Shown in pieces: positions 7,168 through 63,218 of a DNA stretch of 64,000 nucleotides. The DNA comes from a virus. A program made the translations under genes and the position numbers. The stretch is taken from positions 1 through 64,000 of the IMG/VR virus record IMGVR_UViG_3300038393_000573. One strand, given 5' to 3'. The notes below the pieces were generated by a model, which made no database searches, was not told the DNA's origin, and was given only the letters and a program-made list of their open reading frames with translations. Each line of letters starts with the position of its first letter. The stretch's first letter is position 1.

Positions 7168-7443
7168 ATGGGACGCACCATTACCCCTAAGTATGCCCTC
7201 GACATGGACGGCTGCACGTGCATGGCATGGGACACGAAGCGCCACGGCAAGCCCACAGCCGCGAAGCTGGAGCGAGTAGTTATGGAGTACGCCAAAAGCC
7301 TAGAGGCAGGGGGCTGCAATGCCCATATCTCGCAGGCTTTGGGATATATCCCTTACCCGCGATGGGCAAGGGTTCGCCGGAATGTGTGGGACGGACACAC
7401 CGTGGCCGAGTGGAAAGCCGCTATGTTTCAGGTGTATGGCTAA
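7168..7443 (+). CDS. hypothetical protein
   Basis: Internal ATG of ORF 7033..7443, immediately after the upstream stop. Confidence 0.5.
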   Translation: MGRTITPKYALDMDGCTCMAWDTKRHGKPTAAKLERVVMEYAKSLEAGGCNAHISQALGYIPYPRWARVRRNVWDGHTVAEWKAAMFQVYG

Positions 7444-7700
7444 TGGACCGCGCACAGGCTGAAGCATTCGCCCGGACCCTTTGGGGTTCCCGTGGCTTTG
7501 CCCGTGAATTGCGGGAAGCTACGGACGCGGACACCTATGACAGCGAAGGCTGGCGGATTTGTTCTGGCCCTATCTTTGTCTATGAAGTGGGCTACTATCG
7601 CACAGGCAAAAAGGGCGCGAAGCTTTCCACTGTGAAGGGGAGAAGCCCGACAGGGTATGCTGAAGCTTTCGAAGCCGCAGGTATTAGGGTTTGCCCCTAG
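7443..7700 (+). CDS. hypothetical protein
   Basis: TAATG overlap with upstream stop; in frame with ORF 7218..7700. Confidence 0.5.
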   Translation: MDRAQAEAFARTLWGSRGFARELREATDADTYDSEGWRICSGPIFVYEVGYYRTGKKGAKLSTVKGRSPTGYAEAFEAAGIRVCP

Positions 7701-17558: not shown

Positions 17559-18224
17559 TTATTGCCTCCAGCGCGAAAGCATGTTAGCTACTGTAGTAGC
17601 TCCCCATGCCCCGCCCCTAGCTGTCGGTACACCCGTAGCGTTAAGCTCGTTAGCCACCTGTGCGATAGTCATCCCTGCAGCCCTCATACGCTCGATGGTG
17701 GGCCGCATACGGGCCGCGAAATCATCAGCCTGCCTACGCTGTACGTCGCGCCCGCTGGAGCCCGCATAGGCTAGATTCTTCGGATTGCCAAGCTTCACAC
17801 CGCGAGCCTTAAGGGCCGCAAGCCCCGCTTTGGTACGCTCACCTATCAGACGCCTTTCCTTCTCCGCTAGGGCTGCATACAGGTGAAGCACGAAGGGGTC
17901 AACATCATCCCCTAACTCCGCGACCACGAACCTAACGCCCTGTGCCATGAGCCCGCTGATAAACGCAACATCGCGGCTCAGCCGGTCAAGCTTCGCCACC
18001 AGCACCGTAGCCTTAGCGTGCCGGGCTTGGAATAGCAGCCGCTGCAGGATGGGACGCCCGGGCAGGGGCAGGCCCCCACTGGCGACCTCTACGGATTCAC
18101 CCTGCAGGCTGTAGCCTGCCCCCTGTGCGAATGCTTGGACGGCCTTAGCCTGTGCCTCTAGGCCGTTGCGGCTGTCACCCTGCTCACGAGTGGAAACACG
18201 GTAATAGGCGAATGCGGGACGCAT
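17559..18224 (-). CDS. small serine recombinase (resolvase/invertase family)
   Basis: GGAGGTG SD; N-terminal YYRVSTREQ catalytic-Ser motif; LDRLSRD; C-terminal HTH-like [15 protein letters not shown]. Confidence 0.85.
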
Positions 18225-22254: not shown

Positions 22255-22617
22255 CTATTTCATTAGGTCGCTGTATTGGTCAGGCGTAAGATCAAACTCC
22301 AGCCAATCTCCGCAGGGCTTCCACCACTTAGGACCATCATGGTCTGCATCCGGCCTCTCGTTGTGAAGCACTACGAACTCAAAGAAGTAAGGGTCCGTCT
22401 CTCTATCTAGCTCGTCCCACAGCCTAGCCTGCTCCACGCGGGGATTCTTTGAAGACCCCACGGGGATGATGGCGAACACATTGCCCGGTATCCCGAGAAG
22501 CCGGATAGCCCACTGTGCATTTACGCCTTCGGCAATGAGATTCAACAGGGCGGTGTAGAAGACGCCAAACGGTTTCTTGAGTACGTGCGCGGGCAAGAAC
22601 CCGATGAGGCCGAGCAC
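22255..22617 (-). CDS. hypothetical protein
   Basis: ORF track; start abuts the stop of the phosphoesterase gene. Confidence 0.6.
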   Translation of the reverse strand: MLGLIGFLPAHVLKKPFGVFYTALLNLIAEGVNAQWAIRLLGIPGNVFAIIPVGSSKNPRVEQARLWDELDRETDPYFFEFVVLHNERPDADHDGPKWWKPCGDWLEFDLTPDQYSDLMK

Positions 22618-23393
22618 TACGGGATATACGTAGTGACCTTGGAAAAGATTGGTGTTTGATTTTGCGCAGCCTCCAGCAACGCAGCCTTCTCAGCATCCGT
22701 CAGAGGGTCTGTGTTACCCCACTTCGTGCCAACGTCGCTCAGGAAGCTCACGCCCTCGCACTCCCCAACGTGGTTGATGTACCACTTCAAAAGTTTTTTG
22801 TAATCAACCTGCGGTTCATGGTGGTTGGCACGCGCAGGGAGCTTGTCCATAAGCGCCTTAATCTCCATGATGTTCAGCGGCTTGCCATGAGCATCCCAGC
22901 CCACGTCAAGCGCCTTGCCGGGCACGCCAGAAGGGTTGCCGTGCAAATGCCCGTGAAGGTGCCACGAGCCGTAGTGCTGCTTATGCCAGTGCATGATCGG
23001 GAAGTGGAACATGCACACAAGCTGTCCCGGTCCCTCAGGATTGATGGTGAACGTGCGCTCCAGATAGTGGTGGAACTCCGTCAGGTAAATCCTCACCTGC
23101 GTGGGCAGCAAAGCCCCTTCAGCGTTCTTCGTGCGGTGGTCGTGGTTGCCCTTCACAAGTACCTTCCTACCACGGATGGATGCGAGGATGTCCGCCGTAG
23201 CTTCAGGCTTGTGAAAGCTGAAGTCGCCAATGATGTAGAGGGTATCTTCCGGCTTCACGCACCTATTGAGTCCGTCAATGATCGCAGCGTCGTGTGCTTC
23301 CACGCTTGCACGGACACGATGTGGGCTGTCATATCGCTCCGTGTCAATCATCAGCCTATGGCCGAAATGGAGGTCACTCGTGAACCAATCCAT
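22617..23393 (-). CDS. calcineurin-like metallophosphoesterase
   Basis: SDLHFGH, IIGDFSFH, VKGNHDH, HGHLHG metal-ligand motifs in canonical order. Confidence 0.85.
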   Translation of the reverse strand: MDWFTSDLHFGHRLMIDTERYDSPHRVRASVEAHDAAIIDGLNRCVKPEDTLYIIGDFSFHKPEATADILASIRGRKVLVKGNHDHRTKNAEGALLPTQVRIYLTEFHHYLERTFTINPEGPGQLVCMFHFPIMHWHKQHYGSWHLHGHLHGNPSGVPGKALDVGWDAHGKPLNIMEIKALMDKLPARANHHEPQVDYKKLLKWYINHVGECEGVSFLSDVGTKWGNTDPLTDAEKAALLEAAQNQTPIFSKVTTYIP

Positions 23394-23394
23394 T

Positions 23395-23619
23395 TCAGTT
23401 GACCTCTTCTGCAGCAGCGATCAAGGCCAGTCCAACTTGCCGGGCCACTTCAGGGTCCAGCACAAGATCAATCTTGCTGAAGTATTCTTCAGCCTTCTTG
23501 CCTTCAGTGTGCAGTCGGACCATGCCAAGCCCGTCGCAGTCTGGGCCGATGGTCAACTCCCCGCCCGGTTCGCCCTCCAGCCAAACCCTTCGGATGATTT
23601 CAGTGTGTGCTTTCGCCAT
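23395..23619 (-). CDS. hypothetical protein
   Basis: AAGGAGAG SD before the internal ATG of ORF 23395..23637. Confidence 0.55.
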   Translation of the reverse strand: MAKAHTEIIRRVWLEGEPGGELTIGPDCDGLGMVRLHTEGKKAEEYFSKIDLVLDPEVARQVGLALIAAAEEVN

Positions 23620-23640
23620 AGTGTCTCTCCTTTTCAATGT

Positions 23641-23698
23641 TGGTGGACGGGACGGGAATCGAACCCGCCATGTGCACTTGTCCCAGCTTCACCCGCCC
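23641..23698 (-). ncRNA. 58-nt tRNA-like minihelix (acceptor stem with G3:U70, T arm and CCA; no anticodon arm)
   Basis: Minus strand: GGGCGGG-23 nt-GCGGG TTCGATT CCCGT-CCCGTCC-A-CCA. It has its own promoter and sits just after a terminator. Confidence 0.5.
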
Positions 23699-23707
23699 AA
23701 TGCGTGC

Positions 23708-23735
23708 ATCATACCACAGCAAGTAAGGAAAGCAA
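23708..23735 (-). promoter_or_regulatory. sigma70-like promoter TTGCTT-N16-TATGAT
   Basis: The -10 ends 9 nt upstream of G1 of the tRNA-like element. Confidence 0.55.
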
Positions 23736-23744
23736 GGCTTAAGC

Positions 23745-23776
23745 AAAAAAAAAGCCTACCGCCGAAGCAGTAGGCT
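23745..23776 (-). terminator. intrinsic terminator after the ClpP-like gene
   Basis: GCCTAC-N10-GTAGGC followed by T9 on the minus strand. Confidence 0.8.
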
Positions 23777-23781
23777 CATCG

Positions 23782-27364: not shown

Positions 27365-28653
27365 CTGATACTACACTCGTGGTGCGGGAAGTTCAACCTG
27401 CGGTCATTGAAGTGGCTAGCCCCGGCCCGCAGGGCGTTGCCAAGAGTGCATATGACGTTGCTGTCGATAATGGTTTTGTGGGCACTGAGCAAGAATGGCT
27501 GGATTCTCTCGGGGGTGCCACGTGGGACACGTTGCAGGGTAAGCCCGCTACGTTTCCTCCTAGCGCCCACACGCACCAGATTGCGGACGTTACTGGGTTA
27601 CAAGCCGAACTCGATGGAAAGGAAGCTGCAGGGACAGCCGCTGCCGCTGTTGCGGGGCTCACCAAGGCCAGTGTGGGGCTTGGTAGTGTAGACAACACGA
27701 GTGACGCAGAGAAGCCCATTTCCACAGCTCAGCAGGCTGCCCTCGATGGCAAAGATGCAGTGGGAGCAGCTACAGCCGCCGTAGCTGCTCATGAAGCAGC
27801 CCTTGACCCACACCCGCAGTACACAACAGCGTCCGAGGCTGCTTCTGCGGCTCCCGTGCAATCCGTAGCTGGGAAGACTGGCGCAGTGACGCTCGGCAAG
27901 GTTGATGTGGGCCTTGGAAACGTTGATAACACCAGTGATGCCAGCAAGCCAGTTTCGACGGCTCAACAAGCCGCATTGAATGCCAAGCAAGATACGCTGG
28001 TGTCTGGAACGAACATTAAGACCGTCAATGGGAATTCCGTTCTCGGTGCTGGTAACATCGCTGTCGCTGCCACACCGGCTGGTGCTACCACGCAAGTCCA
28101 GTACAACAAGGCTGGTGCATTCTTCGCTGATGCAGCACTCAGCTTTGACGATACAACTGGCAAGTTGTATTCCGCACAGTTTGTTGCTAATGATAGCTCA
28201 TCAGCGCCGGGTTTCAGATTTTTTGGCAGCAACTCCGGTTTGCGCTATAACGCTGCGTCGGACTCTGGGCGAATTTTCGTATACGTCAACGGCTCCGACC
28301 GCTTCGCGTTTGGAACGTCCGGGCCTATTTTAGCGGGCAGCACAGGGCACGGCCTCAAGTGGACGGACGGTGCACAAACGTCGCTGACGCTCACCGCAGG
28401 ACTGTCGTGGAGTGCCTCTAATGTGCTTGAAGTCAACAATGGTTCTGCAGGATCGTTCGCGGATTTGAAACTTCGCAACCTGAAGCCGCAAGTCTTTACG
28501 GTGGCTACACTACCTAGTGCTTCCACGGCTGGTAACGGCGCACGTTCCCACGTTTCTGACGCATCCGCACCAACATTCGGCGCAACTGTGTCCGGTGGTG
28601 GCACCGTATCAACCCCCGTCTACTCTGACGGGACAAACTGGAAAGTAGGCTAA
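27361..28653 (+). CDS. tail fibre protein
   Basis: Two copies of the fibre repeat GLG(S/N)VDNTSDxxKPxSTAQQAAL; Gly/Ala/Thr-rich. Confidence 0.75.
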   Translation: MTDTTLVVREVQPAVIEVASPGPQGVAKSAYDVAVDNGFVGTEQEWLDSLGGATWDTLQGKPATFPPSAHTHQIADVTGLQAELDGKEAAGTAAAAVAGLTKASVGLGSVDNTSDAEKPISTAQQAALDGKDAVGAATAAVAAHEAALDPHPQYTTASEAASAAPVQSVAGKTGAVTLGKVDVGLGNVDNTSDASKPVSTAQQAALNAKQDTLVSGTNIKTVNGNSVLGAGNIAVAATPAGATTQVQYNKAGAFFADAALSFDDTTGKLYSAQFVANDSSSAPGFRFFGSNSGLRYNAASDSGRIFVYVNGSDRFAFGTSGPILAGSTGHGLKWTDGAQTSLTLTAGLSWSASNVLEVNNGSAGSFADLKLRNLKPQVFTVATLPSASTAGNGARSHVSDASAPTFGATVSGGGTVSTPVYSDGTNWKVG

Positions 28654-29573: not shown

Positions 29574-29650
29574 AGCAGGCTAGCTCAGCGGTTAGAGCAG
29601 CGCCCTCATAAGGCGAAGGTGCTTGGTTCGACTCCAAGGCGTTGCTACCA
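29574..29650 (+). tRNA. tRNA-Met/Ile2-like (anticodon CAT), acceptor stem with 1-nt bulge
   Basis: D arm GCTC-AGCGGTTA-GAGC; loop CTCATAA; T arm CTTGG-TTCGACT-CCAAG; 3' acceptor strand is 8 nt (GCGTTGCT). Confidence 0.6.
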
Positions 29651-29837: not shown

Positions 29838-29914
29838 AGGCGGGTACACTTAACTGATAAAGGGCCGGGCTCCAAATCCGTGCGTTGTGAGTTTGAATCC
29901 CACCCCGTTTGCCA
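29838..29914 (+). tRNA. tRNA-Trp-like (anticodon CCA), irregular D arm
   Basis: Acceptor AGGCGGG/CCCGTTT (two G:U pairs); loop CTCCAAA; T arm GTGAG-TTTGAAT-CCCAC; D stem pairs only with a bulge. Confidence 0.45.
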
Positions 29915-56285: not shown

Positions 56286-57941
56286 TTAAAACTTGATAGT
56301 GGTGATGCCAAGCCGATACCGAATGGTTTCGTACTTCTCATCCCTGTGCAGCGAGCCGCAGTAGAAGACGGTTTCCAGTGCGCCTTGCGCTTCTTGCTCT
56401 CGCGTCTGCTGGTCGTAGAGGACGAAGTTGTCGCCCTCCTTCTCCACACGCAGCAAGCCCTTAGCAGACTTCTTCATGCCGTCACCCGTAGCTGGGTCTT
56501 TGAACAGTTCGCGGTCTTCACCCTCCACCACGCCGAACGTTGCCTTCATTGCCATGCCGAAGGTGTCCCGCGTCACGTATTGGTACGTGAAGCTGCCGAT
56601 GCCGAACACGAGGTTGCCTGCGCTGAAGCCCTTGGCCGCAAGGCGGCTGAGGATGGCTTCCTCCCGGTCCAACGTGATGCTGTCACCGTAGATGAGGCCC
56701 ACACGCTGATTCAGCGTCTTGTAGCCCTTCTCATTGGTGTCACCACCGAAGATGTCCCACAGGCACTCCACAGCACCCTTGACGACATGCTCAGGCACTT
56801 CCTTGCCGAGTGTGATACCCGTGGGCCACGAGTCGTCATAGCTGTAGTGGTAATCCACTTCGTACTCGTAGAACTTGCCTTCGTACTTCACCACTTCCTC
56901 GCCATTGACATCATCGTAGTCGTCAAGGCTTTGGATTTCCTTGTACGTCAGGCCCGTGATGATCTTCACCGGGTCGCCCGAATCGGGGCGGAACACCAGC
57001 TTGGCATTGCCCAGCGCATCGGGTTGTCGTGCGAGGATTTCATCCTTCAGTTCCAGCGCCGTTTGCGTGATGACTTTCCAGAAGTCCCACGTGTCGGACA
57101 CGATAGACAAGATGCCAGTGGGGTAGCGAGCCATCAGGCGGCGGAAAGTTTCCTTCTCATCTTCCTTGCCACCCATGCACATGACGCTGTGCTCCGTAGC
57201 CGGAACGCCCCCGCCAAGCAGTTCGAACTCCGCATCGGCGTTGTAGTATTCCTCCAGCCAATCGAGGGCAAGGATGTTGTCCGTGCCGTAGCCCGTTGCA
57301 GCCATGTGTGCACCGCCCGTGGGGCCAGCCGCCATCAGGCCATCGAGTCCACGCATGGAGAAGTCGTGAAGCTGCCAATCCACGAACTGCGGGGCAGAGC
57401 CCGTGATTTCCTGCCACTTGCGTAGGATTCGGCGGAACTCGTAGGCGATGGTAGCCACAGTGATAGGCTTCCAGCATTCAGCCGAGAACGCATCCTCCAG
57501 ATAGTTCGTCAGCCAGAAGAACTCCGGGTAGTTGGGATGGTTCGTCACCGTGAACAGCGGCACCTTCAGGTTCACACGGGAGCCTTCCGGCAGGGCCTTG
57601 ACGATGACAGGCAGGAAGCCAAGATCGTGCAGGGCTGCAATGTGTTCGGAAGTCACCACGCCAGCACCCAGCGCCGCGTCCATGCGACGGGTGTAGCGTG
57701 CGACGACTTTGTGCTTGGGCTTGTCGAAGAACTCGCGGTTCCACTGGTCGATCAAGAAGCCCTTGACCATTGCCTGCAGGCCGAAGAACACCACTTTGCC
57801 GTCCCACTCCTTGGGCATCCGTGCGTGCGTTGCTGCTCGGGCCGTGAAGTTGGAGTACACCTGTTGCGTGCCGGGCACGTATTGGTAGATATGCCCGGTC
57901 TTGTAGAAGTCACAGGCGTGGGGAGGGAAGATGTTGAACAT
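56286..57941 (-). CDS. nadV: nicotinamide phosphoribosyltransferase (NAMPT/NadV) family protein; candidate nicotinamide ADPR-transferase (Namat) of a NARP1-type pathway
   Basis: HDFSMRG, GGAHMAA, VPATEHS, SIVSDTWD, FRPDSGDP, GLIYGDS, GIGSFTYQYVTRD in NAMPT order. Confidence 0.85.
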   Translation of the reverse strand: MFNIFPPHACDFYKTGHIYQYVPGTQQVYSNFTARAATHARMPKEWDGKVVFFGLQAMVKGFLIDQWNREFFDKPKHKVVARYTRRMDAALGAGVVTSEHIAALHDLGFLPVIVKALPEGSRVNLKVPLFTVTNHPNYPEFFWLTNYLEDAFSAECWKPITVATIAYEFRRILRKWQEITGSAPQFVDWQLHDFSMRGLDGLMAAGPTGGAHMAATGYGTDNILALDWLEEYYNADAEFELLGGGVPATEHSVMCMGGKEDEKETFRRLMARYPTGILSIVSDTWDFWKVITQTALELKDEILARQPDALGNAKLVFRPDSGDPVKIITGLTYKEIQSLDDYDDVNGEEVVKYEGKFYEYEVDYHYSYDDSWPTGITLGKEVPEHVVKGAVECLWDIFGGDTNEKGYKTLNQRVGLIYGDSITLDREEAILSRLAAKGFSAGNLVFGIGSFTYQYVTRDTFGMAMKATFGVVEGEDRELFKDPATGDGMKKSAKGLLRVEKEGDNFVLYDQQTREQEAQGALETVFYCGSLHRDEKYETIRYRLGITTIKF

Positions 57942-60150: not shown

Positions 60151-60405
60151 TCAAGTCTTTTGTTGTTTCGTTGCTAAAGCCATTAGGTCTGCAGCCCCTG
60201 TCTTGGATACGGCAGCGAAGTCGCCCACGTAGACATCGCCAGCGTACACCTGTGGCACGGAACGATGGCCCTTGGCCTTGAAGAAAGCTTTCGCTCCCTC
60301 ATCCTCCGTTACCATCTTCACTTCAAACGGAATGTTGAAGCGAAGCAGCAGGGCTTTGACTGCGGTACAGCCCGGACAAGCCGGGGTCGAATAGACGGTA
60401 AGCAT
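60151..60405 (-). CDS. glutaredoxin/thioredoxin-fold redoxin (NrdH-like position)
   Basis: MLTVYSTPACPGC...VPQVY pattern; TAATG overlap with the RNR stop. Confidence 0.75.
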   Translation of the reverse strand: MLTVYSTPACPGCTAVKALLLRFNIPFEVKMVTEDEGAKAFFKAKGHRSVPQVYAGDVYVGDFAAVSKTGAADLMALATKQQKT

Positions 60406-63218
60406 TACAGGATAACCTCGCATTGGCCGCCAGCACAGGCCGCTTCCTGCGTAAAGCCCGTAGCGTCGTCGGTTTCAATCACCTGCGTAAGATCGATGCT
60501 ATGAAGCAGCGACATCATCGCATTGTACTCTTCTTCCGTGCAGTCTTCGAACGGCGCTTGGATGTACGTCCCACCGTCATAAGGCAACACGCTGATGCCG
60601 TTGTACTCGTTGCGATGCTTCCACATCCACTCACCGCAGGCTTCCCACTCGTCAGGCTTCAGGCTGATGGTGCAAGATACGTTGTGCTTCTGCACGCCGC
60701 GATTATGGCCCGGAGCAATCCACTCCTGATTGAACCTGCGAACACGCTCCAGCAAATCCAAGAACGACTCATCGCGCAAGATGGAGCCCTCGGGAGCTTT
60801 CTGCGGAATCGTCAGCACGGCTTCAAGGTGCGGTTTGAAGTGGCAATCCTCCACAAGCTCCGGGAAGTTGGCCTTCACGTAGGCGTACAGCGGCTCGTTC
60901 TTTCCAAGGCGCATACGGCGACGGTAGAACGGAGCGTGCCATGCATGGATGCCAGATGAAGAGCCCACCACGATAGAGGCAGTGCCTTCAGGCTTGAGAA
61001 GCGAGGTCCGAGCAGCCGTATTAATGCCGACTAGCGATGCCACATCCTTGTTCACTGTCACCACAATGCGTGCGGCTTCCGTCAAGTCCAGTTTCAACAC
61101 CCTGCCAGAGCCGATGCCCGTCATGGACACACCGATAAGGGCGTCTTCTTCCGTAACCTTCTTCCATTCATCCCGCAGATAGTGGAAGTCTGTATAGGAT
61201 GCTTGCAGAGTGCCGATGAGGGTAGCAGCGGCTACTCGTTTGTTCAACTCATCTTGCGTCTCGACATCCGATGCGTTAACCGTAGTAAGGTTGCAGAACG
61301 AGAACATTCGCAACGTAGCCTCGACACAGTTGTGCGCAACAACGCCATTGACGATGCCCCAATGAGTTTCAGGCTCAGTGAAGTCAAACACTTCAGCTTC
61401 CCCCGCCGACAGAACAGCCGAAACAGTAGGAGAGCTTTCGCGAATTGCTTGTGCCAGTGCTTCACGCTTGTAGCCATGCACAAACGAAACGACTTCCGCA
61501 AACCGAATCAGGTTCTCAAGCCCAGCGAGGTTAACGTCATAGCTCTCCCGGCTTTCGTATTCTCCGTTAGGCCATTGAATCCGCTTCGCCTTATTTGTCG
61601 TCACATACGGCGTCATTCCTTTGGCCTGCAGCCACTCAACTACTTGCTGTGCAAGCAACTTAGATGTCGTCTTGAGAGCAACACGTTTACCAGATGCAAT
61701 CACACACCCGTTTGCAGAGTACAGACCCATGAGGAAGTCGTCACTGCGGTTATCACCAAGCTGCCTATCAAACGTCTGTGTAACGGGCAAGCCATACTTG
61801 TCCACAAGCGATCTGGCAGATTGGAGGTAATGCCGATGGTTGTCTGACAGGGTGACCCCAAAAATGTCCGCTACTTCTACGTCATTCTCGCCAATGCACA
61901 CCACAATTCCAGCCTTGTCAGGATTTGCAGCGTCCGTCAGGCACGCATCGCCGAGCATGAAGCCAGCTTTGAAATCTTCTTGAACGCGAGGAATAGCCTT
62001 GCCGGTAAAGTAAGGCATAAGCCGCTTACCTGCCAAGTCTTTAGCCTCGCACTCCGTTCCGTCATTCAGCATGAATGTGTGATTGGGTGTGACGTACAGG
62101 CTAGGCTTCCTTCCGGCCCTGCTGTGACGAAAGCGGACTTCCACAACAGGCTTTACGCCAGTGGACCACACCTTGCCAGCGGTGAGGTTGCCGTCCTTAT
62201 TGACGTTGAGGAATTCCTTACCCACGAGGCTATCGATTCGTTTGTAGCCTTCGGAGGTAAGCAGTTCCATATCGCCCCTAAAGCACGGGTTGCTCAGAAT
62301 CTCCTTATCGTTAGTCCAATAGACGCCCGGCTCCCCCGCGTTAGACTCTTCAACTCTCTGCCACAGACGTTGAAATGCGTCTTGATCGATTTCATCCCTG
62401 TGCAACACAGCGGAGTTGTTCGCACGCCCGCGCTGGGGGTTCAGTTCCCACCATGCACCGCTCTTGCAAGTCACCATGTCAAGGTCGTCATGGCTGAAGA
62501 ACGCGATCATGGCTGCACGGCGGATACCTCCAGAAAGGACAGCATCGGCAATGTGACACTGCATATCATGGCACTCCAGCGTCGTCAGCTTGCGACCGAC
62601 AGCCCCATTCAACACCGTGCGGAGATTTTCCAGACAGATGCGCAGGGGTTCCGGGCCGGGAGCCTTGCCGCCAGCAGTTACCAGCGTGGCACCCTTCGGA
62701 CGGATATCGCGAAAATCAAAATCAGGGTTGGCCCTGCCCTCTGCGTACGCCTTCAGGAGCATCTTCACCGCGTCGCCCCAGCCTTCAATCGAATCGGAGA
62801 CAAGGTAGCGCCTGCGTGTGGTCTTCGGTCCTTGGATGACGGGCAGCTTTTCAATATGATGCTTCTGCACGCTGTAGCCTACGCCTGTGCCTCCCAGCAG
62901 CAGGAACATGGTTTCACCAAAGGCCACTACATTGTCCACGGGGAGTAGGCAGCAGTTGTAGATTCTTGTGTGGTTGAGTTCAATGGGACGCCCGCCGAAT
63001 TGCATGGATCGCATGGACGGGAGCACCTTCTTAGTCTTGACGTAATCCGTATACACGGCTCGGATGCTGTCCTCAAGCTGCGGGAACTTCTTCAGGTGCA
63101 TCGCTGCATTGCGATCACAGATTTCCTCCCACGTTTCGCGGCGCTTGAGGGCGGGAATGTATTTGGCGTACTTGTTGTAAATGATGATGTCACTGAAGAC
63201 TTGTTGGGAAATGTCCAT
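60405..63218 (-). CDS. nrdJ: ribonucleotide reductase, class II (B12-dependent, NrdJ-like), interrupted by an intein
   Basis: Exteins join to give ...EILSNP-CVEATL...FCNL (NPC-E thiyl-radical loop); C-terminal CAGGQC pair; 618 aa without the intein. Confidence 0.75.
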   Translation of the reverse strand: MDISQQVFSDIIIYNKYAKYIPALKRRETWEEICDRNAAMHLKKFPQLEDSIRAVYTDYVKTKKVLPSMRSMQFGGRPIELNHTRIYNCCLLPVDNVVAFGETMFLLLGGTGVGYSVQKHHIEKLPVIQGPKTTRRRYLVSDSIEGWGDAVKMLLKAYAEGRANPDFDFRDIRPKGATLVTAGGKAPGPEPLRICLENLRTVLNGAVGRKLTTLECHDMQCHIADAVLSGGIRRAAMIAFFSHDDLDMVTCKSGAWWELNPQRGRANNSAVLHRDEIDQDAFQRLWQRVEESNAGEPGVYWTNDKEILSNPCFRGDMELLTSEGYKRIDSLVGKEFLNVNKDGNLTAGKVWSTGVKPVVEVRFRHSRAGRKPSLYVTPNHTFMLNDGTECEAKDLAGKRLMPYFTGKAIPRVQEDFKAGFMLGDACLTDAANPDKAGIVVCIGENDVEVADIFGVTLSDNHRHYLQSARSLVDKYGLPVTQTFDRQLGDNRSDDFLMGLYSANGCVIASGKRVALKTTSKLLAQQVVEWLQAKGMTPYVTTNKAKRIQWPNGEYESRESYDVNLAGLENLIRFAEVVSFVHGYKREALAQAIRESSPTVSAVLSAGEAEVFDFTEPETHWGIVNGVVAHNCVEATLRMFSFCNLTTVNASDVETQDELNKRVAAATLIGTLQASYTDFHYLRDEWKKVTEEDALIGVSMTGIGSGRVLKLDLTEAARIVVTVNKDVASLVGINTAARTSLLKPEGTASIVVGSSSGIHAWHAPFYRRRMRLGKNEPLYAYVKANFPELVEDCHFKPHLEAVLTIPQKAPEGSILRDESFLDLLERVRRFNQEWIAPGHNRGVQKHNVSCTISLKPDEWEACGEWMWKHRNEYNGISVLPYDGGTYIQAPFEDCTEEEYNAMMSLLHSIDLTQVIETDDATGFTQEAACAGGQCEVIL
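61329..62285 (-). mobile_element. intein (319 aa) with LAGLIDADG homing-endonuclease domain
   Basis: Starts with Cys (CFRGDMELLT), ends VVAHN followed by +1 Cys; dodecapeptide motifs FKAGFMLGDA and FLMGLYSANG. Confidence 0.85.

What the first reader, a model, noticed from the sequence alone, without database searches (positions are those of the whole stretch)
23641..23735. Promoter-driven 58-nt tRNA-like minihelix with G3:U70 and encoded CCA but no anticodon arm
Seen on the minus strand. Right after a strong terminator (T9) lies a TTGCTT-N16-TATGAT promoter whose -10 ends 9 nt before the sequence GGGCGGG TGAAGCTGGGACAAGTGCACATG GCGGG TTCGATT CCCGT CCCGTCC A CCA. The 7-bp acceptor stem pairs perfectly apart from a G3:U70 wobble. 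The T arm is canonical and CCA is encoded. Only 23 nt separate the acceptor 5' strand from the T arm, so no normal D arm plus anticodon arm fits. Established: G3:U70 is the main identity element for alanyl-tRNA synthetase. Acceptor-T minihelices and the tRNA-like domain of tmRNA are alanylated without an anticodon. Inference: this could be a chargeable decoy or minihelix RNA, a sink or bait for tRNA-targeting defence or host factors, or a fragment of a tRNA kept for another reason.
Basis: partly seen in the sequence, partly recalled or inferred. Interest (0 to 1): 0.65.

Follow-up and report, generated by a model that had tools for sequence, protein, structure and literature searches.

The report
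Anticodon-less alanine-type tRNA mimic in phage
A phage carries a real, evolutionarily maintained gene for a 58-nt "top half of a tRNA" with the alanine identity mark and no anticodon. [quoted passage not shown]

Summary
**Observation:** confirmed base for base.
- Minus strand 23698-23641 reads GGGCGGG-N23-GCGGG TTCGATT CCCGT-CCCGTCC-A-CCA.
- It lies 9 nt after an extended -10 and behind a T9 terminator.
- ARAGORN and Rfam do not call it.

**It is a conserved gene, not chance or a tRNA scrap.**
- Homologues occur in the closest relative (L026, same slot), in a 463-kb phage tRNA array, and as 48-nt versions in a third phage group.
- Across 7 distinct members the T stem covaries (4 of 5 pairs).
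- The acceptor stem, including G3:U70, A73 and CCA, is essentially invariant. The interior ranges from 13 to about 215 nt.
- About 11 relatives keep the same promoter and operon without the element, so it is an accessory insertion in a 5' UTR.
- No cellular genome tRNA end matches it, so it is not an att site.

**Unexpected link.** In four independent lineages the next protein gene is a calcineurin-like phosphoesterase, from three different families. In one group ordinary tRNA genes occupy the same slot.

**Closest known.** CDS-less ("TLD-only") tmRNA of mycobacteriophage DS6A, reported to inhibit host tmRNA. Membership is not established.

**Most likely.** A trans-acting, alanine-accepting minihelix RNA. 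Its function is inferred, not shown.

The parts
23745..23777 (-). Intrinsic terminator of the upstream ClpP-like gene: 11-bp hairpin at 23777-23752 plus a T9 run at 23753-23745.
   Evidence: An equivalent terminator stands at this position in relatives.
23708..23735 (-). Sigma-70-type promoter: -35 TTGCTT (23735-23730), 16-nt spacer, extended -10 TGgTATGAT (23716-23708).
   Evidence: for the geometry. -35 cTTGCnTT and -10 TAtgAT are conserved in relatives with and without the element. The simple scan does not list it because the -35 matches only 3 of 6. The transcription start is inferred.
23699..23707 (-). 9 nt (GCACGCATT) between the -10 and G1. The predicted start site falls here, leaving a 5' leader of 0-3 nt.
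   Evidence: Inference from standard -10-to-start spacing.
23641..23698 (-). 58-nt anticodon-arm-less tRNA-like RNA gene. Acceptor 5' strand 23698-23692; interior 23691-23669 (AGCTGGGA D-loop-like motif, GTGCAC at 23677-23672); T stem 23668-23664 and 23656-23652; T loop 23663-23657; acceptor 3' strand 23651-23645; A73 at 23644; CCA at 23643-23641.
   Evidence: Covariance model R1 scores it 79.6 bits, the only strong copy in the window. Covariation and conservation.
23635..23702 (-). CATTG at both junctions (23702-23698 and 23639-23635). This could be a target-site duplication or microhomology left by the insertion.
   Evidence: The uninterrupted 5' UTR of relative L021 reads ..cgATTGAAtgAAGGAGAG. 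The duplication is weak evidence and is not exact in L026.
23395..23630 (-). Shine-Dalgarno GGAGAG (23630-23625) and a 74-aa orphan ORF (ATG 23619, stop at 23397-23395), the first cistron after the element.
   Evidence: No homologue among 5.8 billion proteins. Absent in L026, where the element directly precedes the phosphoesterase gene.
22617..23393 (-). 258-aa calcineurin-like metallophosphoesterase (MDWFTSDLHFGH..GD..GNHD), the conserved gene of the operon the element leads.
   Evidence: phrog_547 at 7e-49. Invariant metal-ligand motifs. AlphaFold model with pLDDT 83; best structural match is 1xm7, of unknown function. Homologous gene in all relatives.

Best explanation
The element is a gene for a small stand-alone RNA. 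It consists of the acceptor/T-arm 'upper half' of an alanine tRNA with a vestigial D region and no anticodon arm. [quoted passage not shown]

Shown:
- It is tRNA-derived.
- It recurs in at least three unrelated phage groups.
- Its T stem is kept by compensatory changes.
- Its acceptor stem (G1-C72, G2-C71, G3:U70, C4-G69 ... A73, CCA) is kept at the sequence level while the interior is free to vary.
- In this phage it was inserted right after a conserved promoter, ahead of a phosphoesterase operon.

Inferred:
- It is transcribed as the 5' end of that operon's mRNA.
- It is cut out like a tRNA: RNase P at G1, then endonuclease and exonuclease trimming to the encoded CCA.
- It is charged with alanine by host AlaRS, which reads the acceptor stem and not the anticodon.
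- It acts in trans on translation-linked machinery that recognises the upper half of tRNA-Ala or tmRNA.
- The most concrete candidate is SmpB/EF-Tu and the ribosome-rescue pathway, either blocking host trans-translation or giving tag-less rescue. This is what is reported for the TLD-only RNA of mycobacteriophage DS6A.
- The recurrent neighbourhood with tRNA genes and a metallophosphoesterase suggests it works within a tRNA-end or RNA-repair context.
For: - The sequence and frame are real and not chance.
- Homologues:
  - L026 in the same slot.
  - The 463-kb phage contig L037/L063 inside a tRNA array.
  - 48-nt forms in L072/L074, L076, L082 and L092.
  - A 246-nt form in L001 with an acceptor and T arm identical in 35 of 35 nt.
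- Pair counts on 7 distinct members:
  - 100% of cells pair, against 51-67% when partners are slid.
  - T stem: 4 of 5 pairs change on both sides.
  - Acceptor stem: 6 of 7 pairs are invariant, and G3:U70 is present in 7 of 7.
- Frame against interior divergence: 34/35 or 35/35 identical in the frame, against 13-16 of 27 in the interior (Fisher p about 1e-5).
- L076 and L092 carry the element as well as tRNA-Gln, so it is a separate gene and not a decayed tRNA.
- The phage's own tRNA-Ala also has C4-G69, so that pair is compatible with alanine identity in this system.
- Ala identity is read from A73, G2-C71, G3:U70, G4-C69 and G20, and G3:U70 still acts in minihelix and microhelix substrates (PMC9976931).
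- Precedent: DS6A 'TLD only' tmRNA inhibits tmRNA, perhaps by titrating SmpB (PMC4131195, PMC11915505). I located that gene at JN698994 28478-28557.
- The promoter is conserved in relatives.
Against: - No expression, processing or charging data exist. The host is unknown.
- tmRNA models match only the T arm and 3' strand (22.6 bits against a gathering score of 47).
- L026, L037 and the long L001 form have a D-like hairpin, whereas a tmRNA TLD has a stemless D loop (PMC3968760). SmpB binding is therefore uncertain.
- Pair 4-69 is C-G, not the G-C listed for bacterial Ala identity.
- Related short elements with A3-U70 (L042 family, L069) cannot be alanine acceptors. The class as a whole may therefore have a function that does not need alanine.
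- The element is dispensable: about 11 relatives lack it.
- Part of the acceptor invariance reflects how members were found. L037 and L072 were found with patterns that fix the acceptor sequence.
- In the window copy the D-hairpin 3' strand is missing relative to L026, which could mean decay.
Confidence: 0.45

Rival explanations
1. Cis-acting 'tRNA punctuation'. The minihelix is only a processing and stability signal for the phosphoesterase mRNA. RNase P and the 3' tRNA-processing nucleases cut at it and so define or protect the 5' end of the downstream message. The released RNA has no function of its own.
For: - It lies in the 5' UTR, between the predicted transcription start and the SD.
- In 34 loci with the L072-type phosphoesterase, the slot 75-150 nt upstream of that gene holds tRNA-Gln, tRNA-Met or the 48-nt element. 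In L074 the element ends at the same coordinate as tRNA-Gln does in relatives.
- L037-type phosphoesterase genes also follow tRNA arrays.
- An acceptor/T minihelix with 3' CCA is the minimal RNase P substrate (established knowledge). [quoted passage not shown]
Against: - RNase P reads shape, not sequence. Yet the acceptor sequence, including the G:U wobble, is invariant while the T stem covaries.
- With the start site 0-3 nt upstream, 5' cleavage would achieve almost nothing.
- Relatives express the same operon from the same promoter without the element.
- In L076 and L092 the element coexists with a tRNA that could already do the job.
- In L037 three tRNA genes lie between the element and the enzyme gene.
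Confidence: 0.25
2. Decoy or bait for host immunity that attacks tRNA acceptor ends. The first reader's 'sink or bait' idea, sharpened: the minihelix soaks up, or reports on, an enzyme that modifies or cuts the CCA end or acceptor stem. Candidates include toxSAS/CapRel-type 3'-pyrophosphokinases, MenT-type nucleotidyltransferases, GNAT acetyltransferases of aminoacyl-tRNA, and acceptor-stem tRNases. The adjacent phosphoesterase heals the damaged ends.
For: - Linkage to a metallophosphoesterase in four lineages, with enzymes from three PHROG families.
- No such gene in 212 kb of control loci.
- Relatives of the window phage carry RtcB RNA ligase three to four genes downstream.
- Calcineurin-like phosphoesterases serve as end-healing enzymes in some phage RNA-repair sets (PMC7824862).
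- The toxin classes named are from my own knowledge and were not tested.
Against: - Nothing ties the enzyme to RNA. The best structural matches are a protein of unknown function (1xm7) and a phosphopantetheinyl hydrolase.
- The window itself has no RtcB.
- A generic CCA decoy would not need an invariant G3:U70 stem.
- No defence system with this specificity has been identified for this unknown host.
Confidence: 0.15
3. Non-functional relic. It is a decaying tRNA-Ala or tmRNA gene with an internal deletion, or a phage attachment-site copy of a host tRNA/tmRNA 3' end.
For: - It is absent from most relatives.
- The window copy lacks the D-hairpin 3' strand seen in L026.
- A serine recombinase gene is present in the window.
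Against: - The frame is identical at 34-35 of 35 positions across unrelated phages while the interior is about 50% diverged.
- The T stem shows compensatory changes.
- Both acceptor strands are present, whereas an att core holds only the 3' part.
- No cellular genome carries this 3' end, apart from one unrelated tRNA in a Patescibacteria MAG.
Confidence: 0.05
4. Acceptor piece of a permuted (two-piece) tmRNA. The 5' acceptor strand would be the second GGGCGGG at 23566-23560, and the 74-aa 'ORF' would be the mRNA-like part.
For: - Rfam tmRNA_permuted aligns the T arm, CCA and the downstream GGGCGGG (22.6 bits, E = 0.0056 for a 241-nt search).
Against: - The score is far below the gathering score of 47.
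- GGGCGGG occurs 13 times in the window against 10 expected.
- L026 has the element but neither the ORF nor a downstream GGGCGGG.
- The ORF has an SD, abuts the next gene's start codon, and is called as a gene on every contig.
Confidence: 0.02

Closest known systems
CDS-less ('TLD-only') tmRNA: mycobacteriophage DS6A; also jakobid mitochondria and Mallomonadaceae plastids (PMC4131195, PMC11915505)
   Same: - A small RNA gene (about 65-80 nt) consisting of a 7-bp acceptor stem with G3:U70, A73, a T arm and no anticodon or tag reading frame.
- Phage-encoded in DS6A.
- Missed by ARAGORN and unannotated in the GenBank record of DS6A.
- DS6A also encodes RtcB.
   Different: - DS6A keeps the tmRNA-type stemless D loop (CAAUGGUGGUCGAC), a closed P2 helix, and GCAC directly before the T stem.
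- The window family has no P2 helix. Its close relatives have a D-like hairpin.
- Its acceptor is GGGCGGG, not GGGG...
- R1 does not detect DS6A, and tmRNA models do not detect the window element.
tRNA-Ala acceptor-TpsiC minihelices and microhelices used in vitro as AlaRS substrates (reviewed in PMC9976931)
   Same: - A coaxial acceptor/T-arm helix carrying G3:U70, G2-C71, A73 and CCA.
- No anticodon is required for alanylation.
   Different: - Those are synthetic constructs. This one is a natural gene with a 13-27-nt bulged interior.
- It has C4-G69, not G4-C69.
Bacterial and phage Y RNAs of the YrlA type (PMC4201824)
   Same: - tRNA mimicry with D- and T-arm analogues.
- Substrates of tRNA enzymes.
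- Often found in RNA-repair neighbourhoods with RtcB.
   Different: - In YrlA the 'acceptor' is a closed stem-loop and the RNA ends lie in a Ro60-binding helix.
- YrlA is encoded next to a Ro60/TROVE gene.
- Here the acceptor is open with 3' ACCA, and no Ro60 gene was flagged among the neighbours that were scanned. Rfam gives no YrlA match.
Ordinary phage-encoded tRNAs, including those proposed as counter-defence against anticodon nucleases
   Same: - Found in phage tRNA arrays (L037) or in a slot otherwise used by tRNA-Gln or tRNA-Met (L074).
- Encoded CCA.
   Different: - There is no anticodon arm. It therefore cannot decode, and cannot replace or distract from a tRNA cleaved in the anticodon loop.

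Membership tests
tmRNA tRNA-like domain / CDS-less tmRNA | 7-bp acceptor stem with G3:U70, discriminator A73 and 3' CCA (alanine identity) | tested here: met
   G3:U70 is present in 7 of 7 family members. One member (L082) ends ACCG.
tmRNA tRNA-like domain / CDS-less tmRNA | tRNA-like T stem-loop abutting the acceptor 3' strand | tested here: met
   The T stem is supported by compensatory changes.
tmRNA tRNA-like domain / CDS-less tmRNA | Reduced D loop without a stem (PMC3968760) | tested here: inconclusive
   The window copy has no stable D stem. L026 (GAGGC-UGGAU-GCCUC), L037 (GGC-GGGUA-GCC) and the long L001 form (GCCU-AAACUGGAU-AGGC) have tRNA-type D hairpins. The 48-nt forms have a stemless AUGGU.. 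stretch like DS6A and tmRNA.
tmRNA tRNA-like domain / CDS-less tmRNA | Helix P2/H2 emerging where the anticodon stem would be (closed by a loop in DS6A) | tested here: not met
   Only a 6-nt palindrome, GUGCAC, occupies this position in the window, L026 and L037. There is no such helix in the 48-nt forms.
tmRNA tRNA-like domain / CDS-less tmRNA | Recognition by tmRNA covariance models or ARAGORN | tested here: not met
   Rfam best is 22.6 bits (gathering score 47) and partial. L026 scores 12.8 bits. ARAGORN finds nothing. DS6A's accepted TLD-only gene is also missed by ARAGORN.
tmRNA tRNA-like domain / CDS-less tmRNA | Binds SmpB, is alanylated, and enters stalled ribosomes | not testable with these tools
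   Needs biochemistry.
Canonical tRNA | Cloverleaf with an anticodon arm | tested here: not met
   Only 23 nt lie between the acceptor and the T arm. No call by ARAGORN or by Rfam tRNA. RF00005 is not the best clan member even at E <= 10.
Phage attP / tRNA-gene fragment | Identity to the 3' part of a host tRNA or tmRNA gene; only the 3' part is present | tested here: not met
   The 26-mer (T arm, 3' strand and CCA) has one unrelated hit in 185,579 genomes. The 5' acceptor strand is present. Limitation: hosts that do not encode CCA would be missed.
YrlA-type Y RNA | Closed 'acceptor' stem-loop, Ro60-binding helix formed by the RNA ends, adjacent Ro60/TROVE gene | tested here: not met
   The acceptor is open with ACCA. 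No TROVE domain was found among the neighbouring genes that were scanned. No Rfam hit.

The most novel reading that the evidence does not exclude
Phages of several unrelated lineages carry a so far unannotated RNA-enzyme module. It pairs an anticodon-less tRNA mimic of fixed alanine-type acceptor sequence with a metallophosphoesterase, and often with tRNA genes and RtcB. The module would either neutralise host immunity aimed at tRNA 3' ends or reprogram ribosome rescue (tag-less rescue or SmpB capture). The variable interior, from 13 to about 215 nt, would define sub-types that range from bare minihelix to tmRNA-like RNAs.
Probability: 0.25. Interest if true: 0.85.

Novelty: new variant of a known kind. 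Interest (0 to 1): 0.62.

Why it matters
Only one phage 'TLD-only' tmRNA (DS6A) is on record. Standard tRNA and tmRNA finders miss these genes.

Here the same minimal alanine-type frame turns up in an ~85-kb phage, in a 463-kb phage and in a group of small phages. It shows clear signs of selection and a repeated genomic partner, a metallophosphoesterase next to tRNA genes.

If the RNA is charged and engages SmpB, EF-Tu or a tRNA-end-directed defence, it would be a compact natural tool by which viruses tamper with translation quality control or with tRNA-targeting immunity.

It is only 48-62 nt long. That makes it easy to test: AlaRS charging, SmpB binding, RNase P cleavage and tmRNA reporter assays.

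It also shows that phage annotation pipelines overlook a class of tRNA-like genes.

Tried and rejected
- **INPHARED phage search:** megablast and blastn with the region found no match.
- **Mis-spaced pattern:** the first gapped pattern for anticodon-less elements had the wrong spacing (N12 where N10 was needed), so its null result means nothing. The corrected patterns worked.
- **Neighbours of distant phosphoesterase homologues (30-37% identity):** no tRNA-like element.
- **Relatives of the 74-aa ORF:** none.
- **Permuted tmRNA using the downstream GGGCGGG:** rejected.
- **L001 long form as a recognisable tmRNA:** not called by ARAGORN even with relaxed thresholds, nor by Rfam. No convincing tag frame.
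- **GUGCAC as a universal feature:**
  - It is absent from the 48-nt forms.
  - In tmRNAs the same hexamer simply overlaps the P2a/T-arm connector.
  - Dimerisation through it is predicted to be favourable but is speculative.
- **RtcB or Y16D in the window:** none.
- **Function of the phosphoesterase:** PDB sequence search, AlphaFold plus Foldseek, and NCBIfam gave only 'unknown function', PptH-like, or a very weak ApaH-like hit.
- **Folding energy as evidence:** z = -0.78, not informative.

Full report
**1. What is in the sequence**

All features below are on the minus strand.
- The ClpP-like gene (24432-23782) ends in an 11-bp hairpin (23777-23752) with a T9 run.
- Next come TTGCTT (23735-23730), a 16-nt spacer and TGgTATGAT (23716-23708).
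- Nine nucleotides later the element begins: GGGCGGG TGAAGCTGGGACAAGTGCACATG GCGGG TTCGATT CCCGT CCCGTCC A CCA (23698-23641).
- It is followed by ACATTGAAAAGGAGAGACACT and then the ATG of a 74-aa ORF.

Additional points:
- ARAGORN finds five tRNAs elsewhere in the window but nothing here.
- Rfam at gathering score finds nothing here either.
- With permissive settings only the T arm, 3' strand and CCA align to tmRNA models, far below threshold.
- The stretch is identical in eight independent metagenome assemblies of the same phage. A missing anticodon arm is therefore not an assembly error.
- Folding energy alone is unremarkable (z = -0.78).
- The MFE uses an alternative partner for G7.
- The case for a real feature rests on the match to the tRNA frame, expected 0.00 times in shuffles, and on homologues.

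**2. Genomic setting**

- The window is a phage. It has a T4-type terminase, a Mu-type portal, a tRNA cluster at 29.3-30.3 kb, PhoH, a ClpP-like protease, NAMPT and a dCMP deaminase.
- It has no close relative in INPHARED.
- Relatives were reached through the ClpP-like protein at 45-67% identity.
- Gene order is conserved: PhoH, ClpP-like, terminator, promoter, then a metallophosphoesterase beginning MDWFTSDLH. In several relatives T4_Y16D and RtcB RNA ligase follow.
- The -35 and -10 elements are conserved across these relatives. This is the best evidence that the promoter is real, because its -35 is weak and the simple scan misses it.
- In L020, L021, L022, L025, L027, L029, L030, L113 and L116 the 5' UTR runs from the promoter straight into the SD.
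- Only the closest relative, L026, has the element at the same junction. There it directly precedes the phosphoesterase gene.
- The element is therefore a lineage-specific insertion at about +1 to +3 of an existing transcription unit.
- CATTG flanks both junctions in the window. That hints at a duplication, but it is weak evidence.
- The 74-aa ORF is an orphan and is absent in L026.

**3. A family, not a one-off**

Pattern scans and a covariance model (R1) recovered homologues.
- **L026:** 62 nt.
- **L037/L063:** 62 nt, in a 463-kb viral contig.
  - It lies inside a 15-gene tRNA array next to tRNA-Ala(CGC).
  - A degenerate second copy lies about 40 nt downstream.
- **48-nt versions:** in L072/L074, L076, L082/L083 and L092.
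- **A 246-nt RNA in L001/L002:**
  - Its acceptor and T arm are identical to the window's in 35 of 35 nt.
  - It has a canonical-looking D arm and an insert of about 190 nt.
  - It lies between two tRNA-Ala genes.

On the seven distinct short members:
- Every pair of the tRNA frame forms: 100% of cells, against 51-67% when partners are slid.
- Four of five T-stem pairs change on both sides.
- Six of seven acceptor pairs never change, and G3:U70 is present in all seven.

Between the window, L026 and L037 the frame differs at 0-1 of 35 positions while the interior differs at 11-14 of 27 (p about 1e-5). This is purifying selection on the minihelix: on structure in the T arm and on sequence in the acceptor stem.

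Caveat: L037 and L072 were found with patterns that fix the acceptor sequence. L026 (found by synteny) and L076, L082 and L092 (found from the neighbouring protein, then the model) are less biased. They show the same invariance while their T stems differ.

Short elements with other acceptor stems and A3-U70 also exist:
- The L042 family, a tandem pair.
- L066/L069.

The broader class is therefore not restricted to the alanine mark.

**4. What it is not**

- **Not an att site or host tRNA fragment.** The 26-mer (T arm, 3' strand and CCA) occurs once in 185,579 genomes, in an unrelated tRNA. Both acceptor strands are also present.
- **Not a permuted tmRNA.** The downstream GGGCGGG is within chance expectation and is missing in L026.
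- **Not a Y RNA.** The acceptor is open, no Ro60 gene was flagged nearby, and there is no Rfam hit.
- **Not a decayed tRNA-Gln.** L076 and L092 have both genes.

**5. The unexpected partner**

The first protein gene downstream of the element is a calcineurin-like metallophosphoesterase in each of these lineages:
- The window and L026, with phrog_547.
- L072/L074 and L069, with phrog_7339.
- L037, with phrog_1649.

The window and L072 enzymes are not detectably similar by BLASTP.

A signature scan finds no such gene in 212 kb of control loci brought in by the same kind of searches.

Going the other way, 34 loci with the L072-type enzyme almost always have a tRNA gene 75-150 nt upstream: tRNA-Gln, sometimes tRNA-Met. 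In L074 the 48-nt element ends at the coordinate where tRNA-Gln ends in relatives. L037-type enzymes also follow tRNA arrays.

So the robust association is between tRNA or tRNA-like genes and a phosphoesterase.

The substrate of the enzyme could not be deduced. The best structural neighbours are a protein of unknown function and PptH. Calcineurin-like enzymes act as RNA-end phosphatases in some phage RNA-repair sets (PMC7824862). Relatives of this phage carry RtcB nearby, but the window itself does not.

**6. Comparison with what is known**

A tmRNA TLD has four features (PMC3968760):
- An acceptor stem with CCA that is charged only with alanine.
- A T arm.
- A stemless D loop.
- SmpB occupying the place of the anticodon and D stems.

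CDS-less tmRNAs of about 65 nt are known in jakobid mitochondria, some plastids and mycobacteriophage DS6A. A DS6A-like molecule inhibits tmRNA in E. coli, perhaps by titrating SmpB (PMC4131195, PMC11915505). I located the DS6A gene (JN698994 28478-28557). It keeps a tmRNA-type D loop and a closed P2 helix.

The window family shares the alanine-type acceptor, the T arm and the lack of any coding part. It has no P2 helix, and its closer members have a D-type hairpin. It looks more like 'tRNA-Ala minus the anticodon arm' than a trimmed tmRNA.

I therefore treat it as working like a TLD-only tmRNA or tRNA-Ala minihelix, not as a proven member of the tmRNA family.

Bacterial alanine identity is A73, G2-C71, G3:U70, G4-C69 and G20 (PMC9976931). 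The element has C4-G69, but so does this phage's genuine tRNA-Ala.

**7. Most likely mechanism**

Shown:
- A selected, tRNA-derived gene placed behind a conserved promoter.

Inferred:
- Transcription as the 5' end of the operon mRNA.
- Excision by the tRNA-processing enzymes.
- Alanylation by AlaRS.
- Action in trans on factors that read the upper half of tRNA-Ala or tmRNA. SmpB and ribosome rescue are the most concrete candidate, because of the DS6A precedent.

Sequence-level invariance of the acceptor stem argues for recognition by a sequence-reading protein. It argues against a purely structural, cis-processing role.

The interchange with ordinary tRNAs upstream of the phosphoesterase gene keeps the cis 'punctuation' model alive. 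The linkage to a phosphoesterase, and to RtcB in relatives, keeps a tRNA-end-defence decoy model alive.

**8. Verdict**

- The feature is a new variant of a known but very rarely recorded kind.
- It has a previously unreported distribution and gene linkage.
- Its function remains inferred.

Noticed in passing
L001:8586-8831 (and L002:611-856, minus strand): A 246-nt RNA-like stretch between tRNA-Ala(GGC) and tRNA-Ala(UGC) in a large viral tRNA array. Its acceptor and T arm are identical to the window element in 35 of 35 nt. It also has a canonical D arm (GCCU-AAACUGGAU-AGGC) and an insert of about 190 nt. ARAGORN (even with relaxed settings) and Rfam do not recognise it. It may be an undescribed tmRNA-like RNA.
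   Followed up: partly
L037:5340-5394 (= L107:1601-1655): A second, degenerate anticodon-less copy (GGGCGAC...TCGTCCACCA, 8-nt T loop, G3:U70 kept) lies about 40 nt after the first in the 463-kb phage contig. Both copies end in ..CGTCCACCAAGTTT.
   Followed up: partly
L042:7328-7381 and about 7438-7525 (minus strand); same in L057, L058, L064, L065, L067, L068: A tandem pair of anticodon-less tRNA-like elements with A3-U70. One is 54 nt, with the 12-nt palindrome CTAGTGCACTAG where the anticodon arm would be. The upstream one has a 7-bp hairpin with a 19-nt loop at that position. Their neighbour ORFs have no Pfam or PHROG match.
   Followed up: partly
L069:5836-5887 (minus strand) and L066:240-291: A 52-nt element, GGAAGAA...ATCTTCC-A-CCA (A3-U70, 8-nt palindrome TGTGCACA). 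It is followed by tRNA-Gly and then a phrog_7339 metallophosphoesterase. The contig also has a tRNA with a CTA anticodon, which ARAGORN labels 'Pyl' (a suppressor-type tRNA).
   Followed up: partly
JN698994 (L070) 28478-28557: The published 'TLD-only' tmRNA of mycobacteriophage DS6A is not annotated in the GenBank record, and ARAGORN misses it. It lies between a minor tail protein gene and the DNA polymerase III beta gene. DS6A also encodes RtcB (gp76).
   Followed up: yes
window 29574-29647 and 29838-29911 (+): Rfam calls two further tRNAs in the phage tRNA cluster (45.2 and 33.2 bits) that ARAGORN does not report. One of the ARAGORN calls is a tRNA-Pro with the unusual anticodon AGG.
   Followed up: no
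window 23395-23619 (-): A 74-aa ORF between the element and the phosphoesterase gene. It has no homologue among 5.8 billion proteins, only a sub-threshold DUF6324 hit. It is absent in L026. L025 and L029 have unrelated small ORFs in the same slot, so this is a hot spot for gene insertion behind the promoter.
   Followed up: partly
L020, L021, L022, L030 (downstream of the phosphoesterase gene): Relatives of the window phage carry T4_Y16D and RtcB RNA ligase in the same operon. The 64-kb window has neither (tblastn).
   Followed up: yes
L082:2265-2400: This 48-nt element ends in ACCG, not ACCA. It directly abuts a tRNA-Gln-like sequence that ARAGORN does not call.
   Followed up: no
window 56286-57941 (-), 60405-63218 (-), 17559-18224 (-): A nicotinamide phosphoribosyltransferase (NAD salvage) gene. 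A 937-aa ORF with an internal LAGLIDADG domain, possibly an intein or homing endonuclease insert. A serine recombinase / DNA invertase gene.
   Followed up: no
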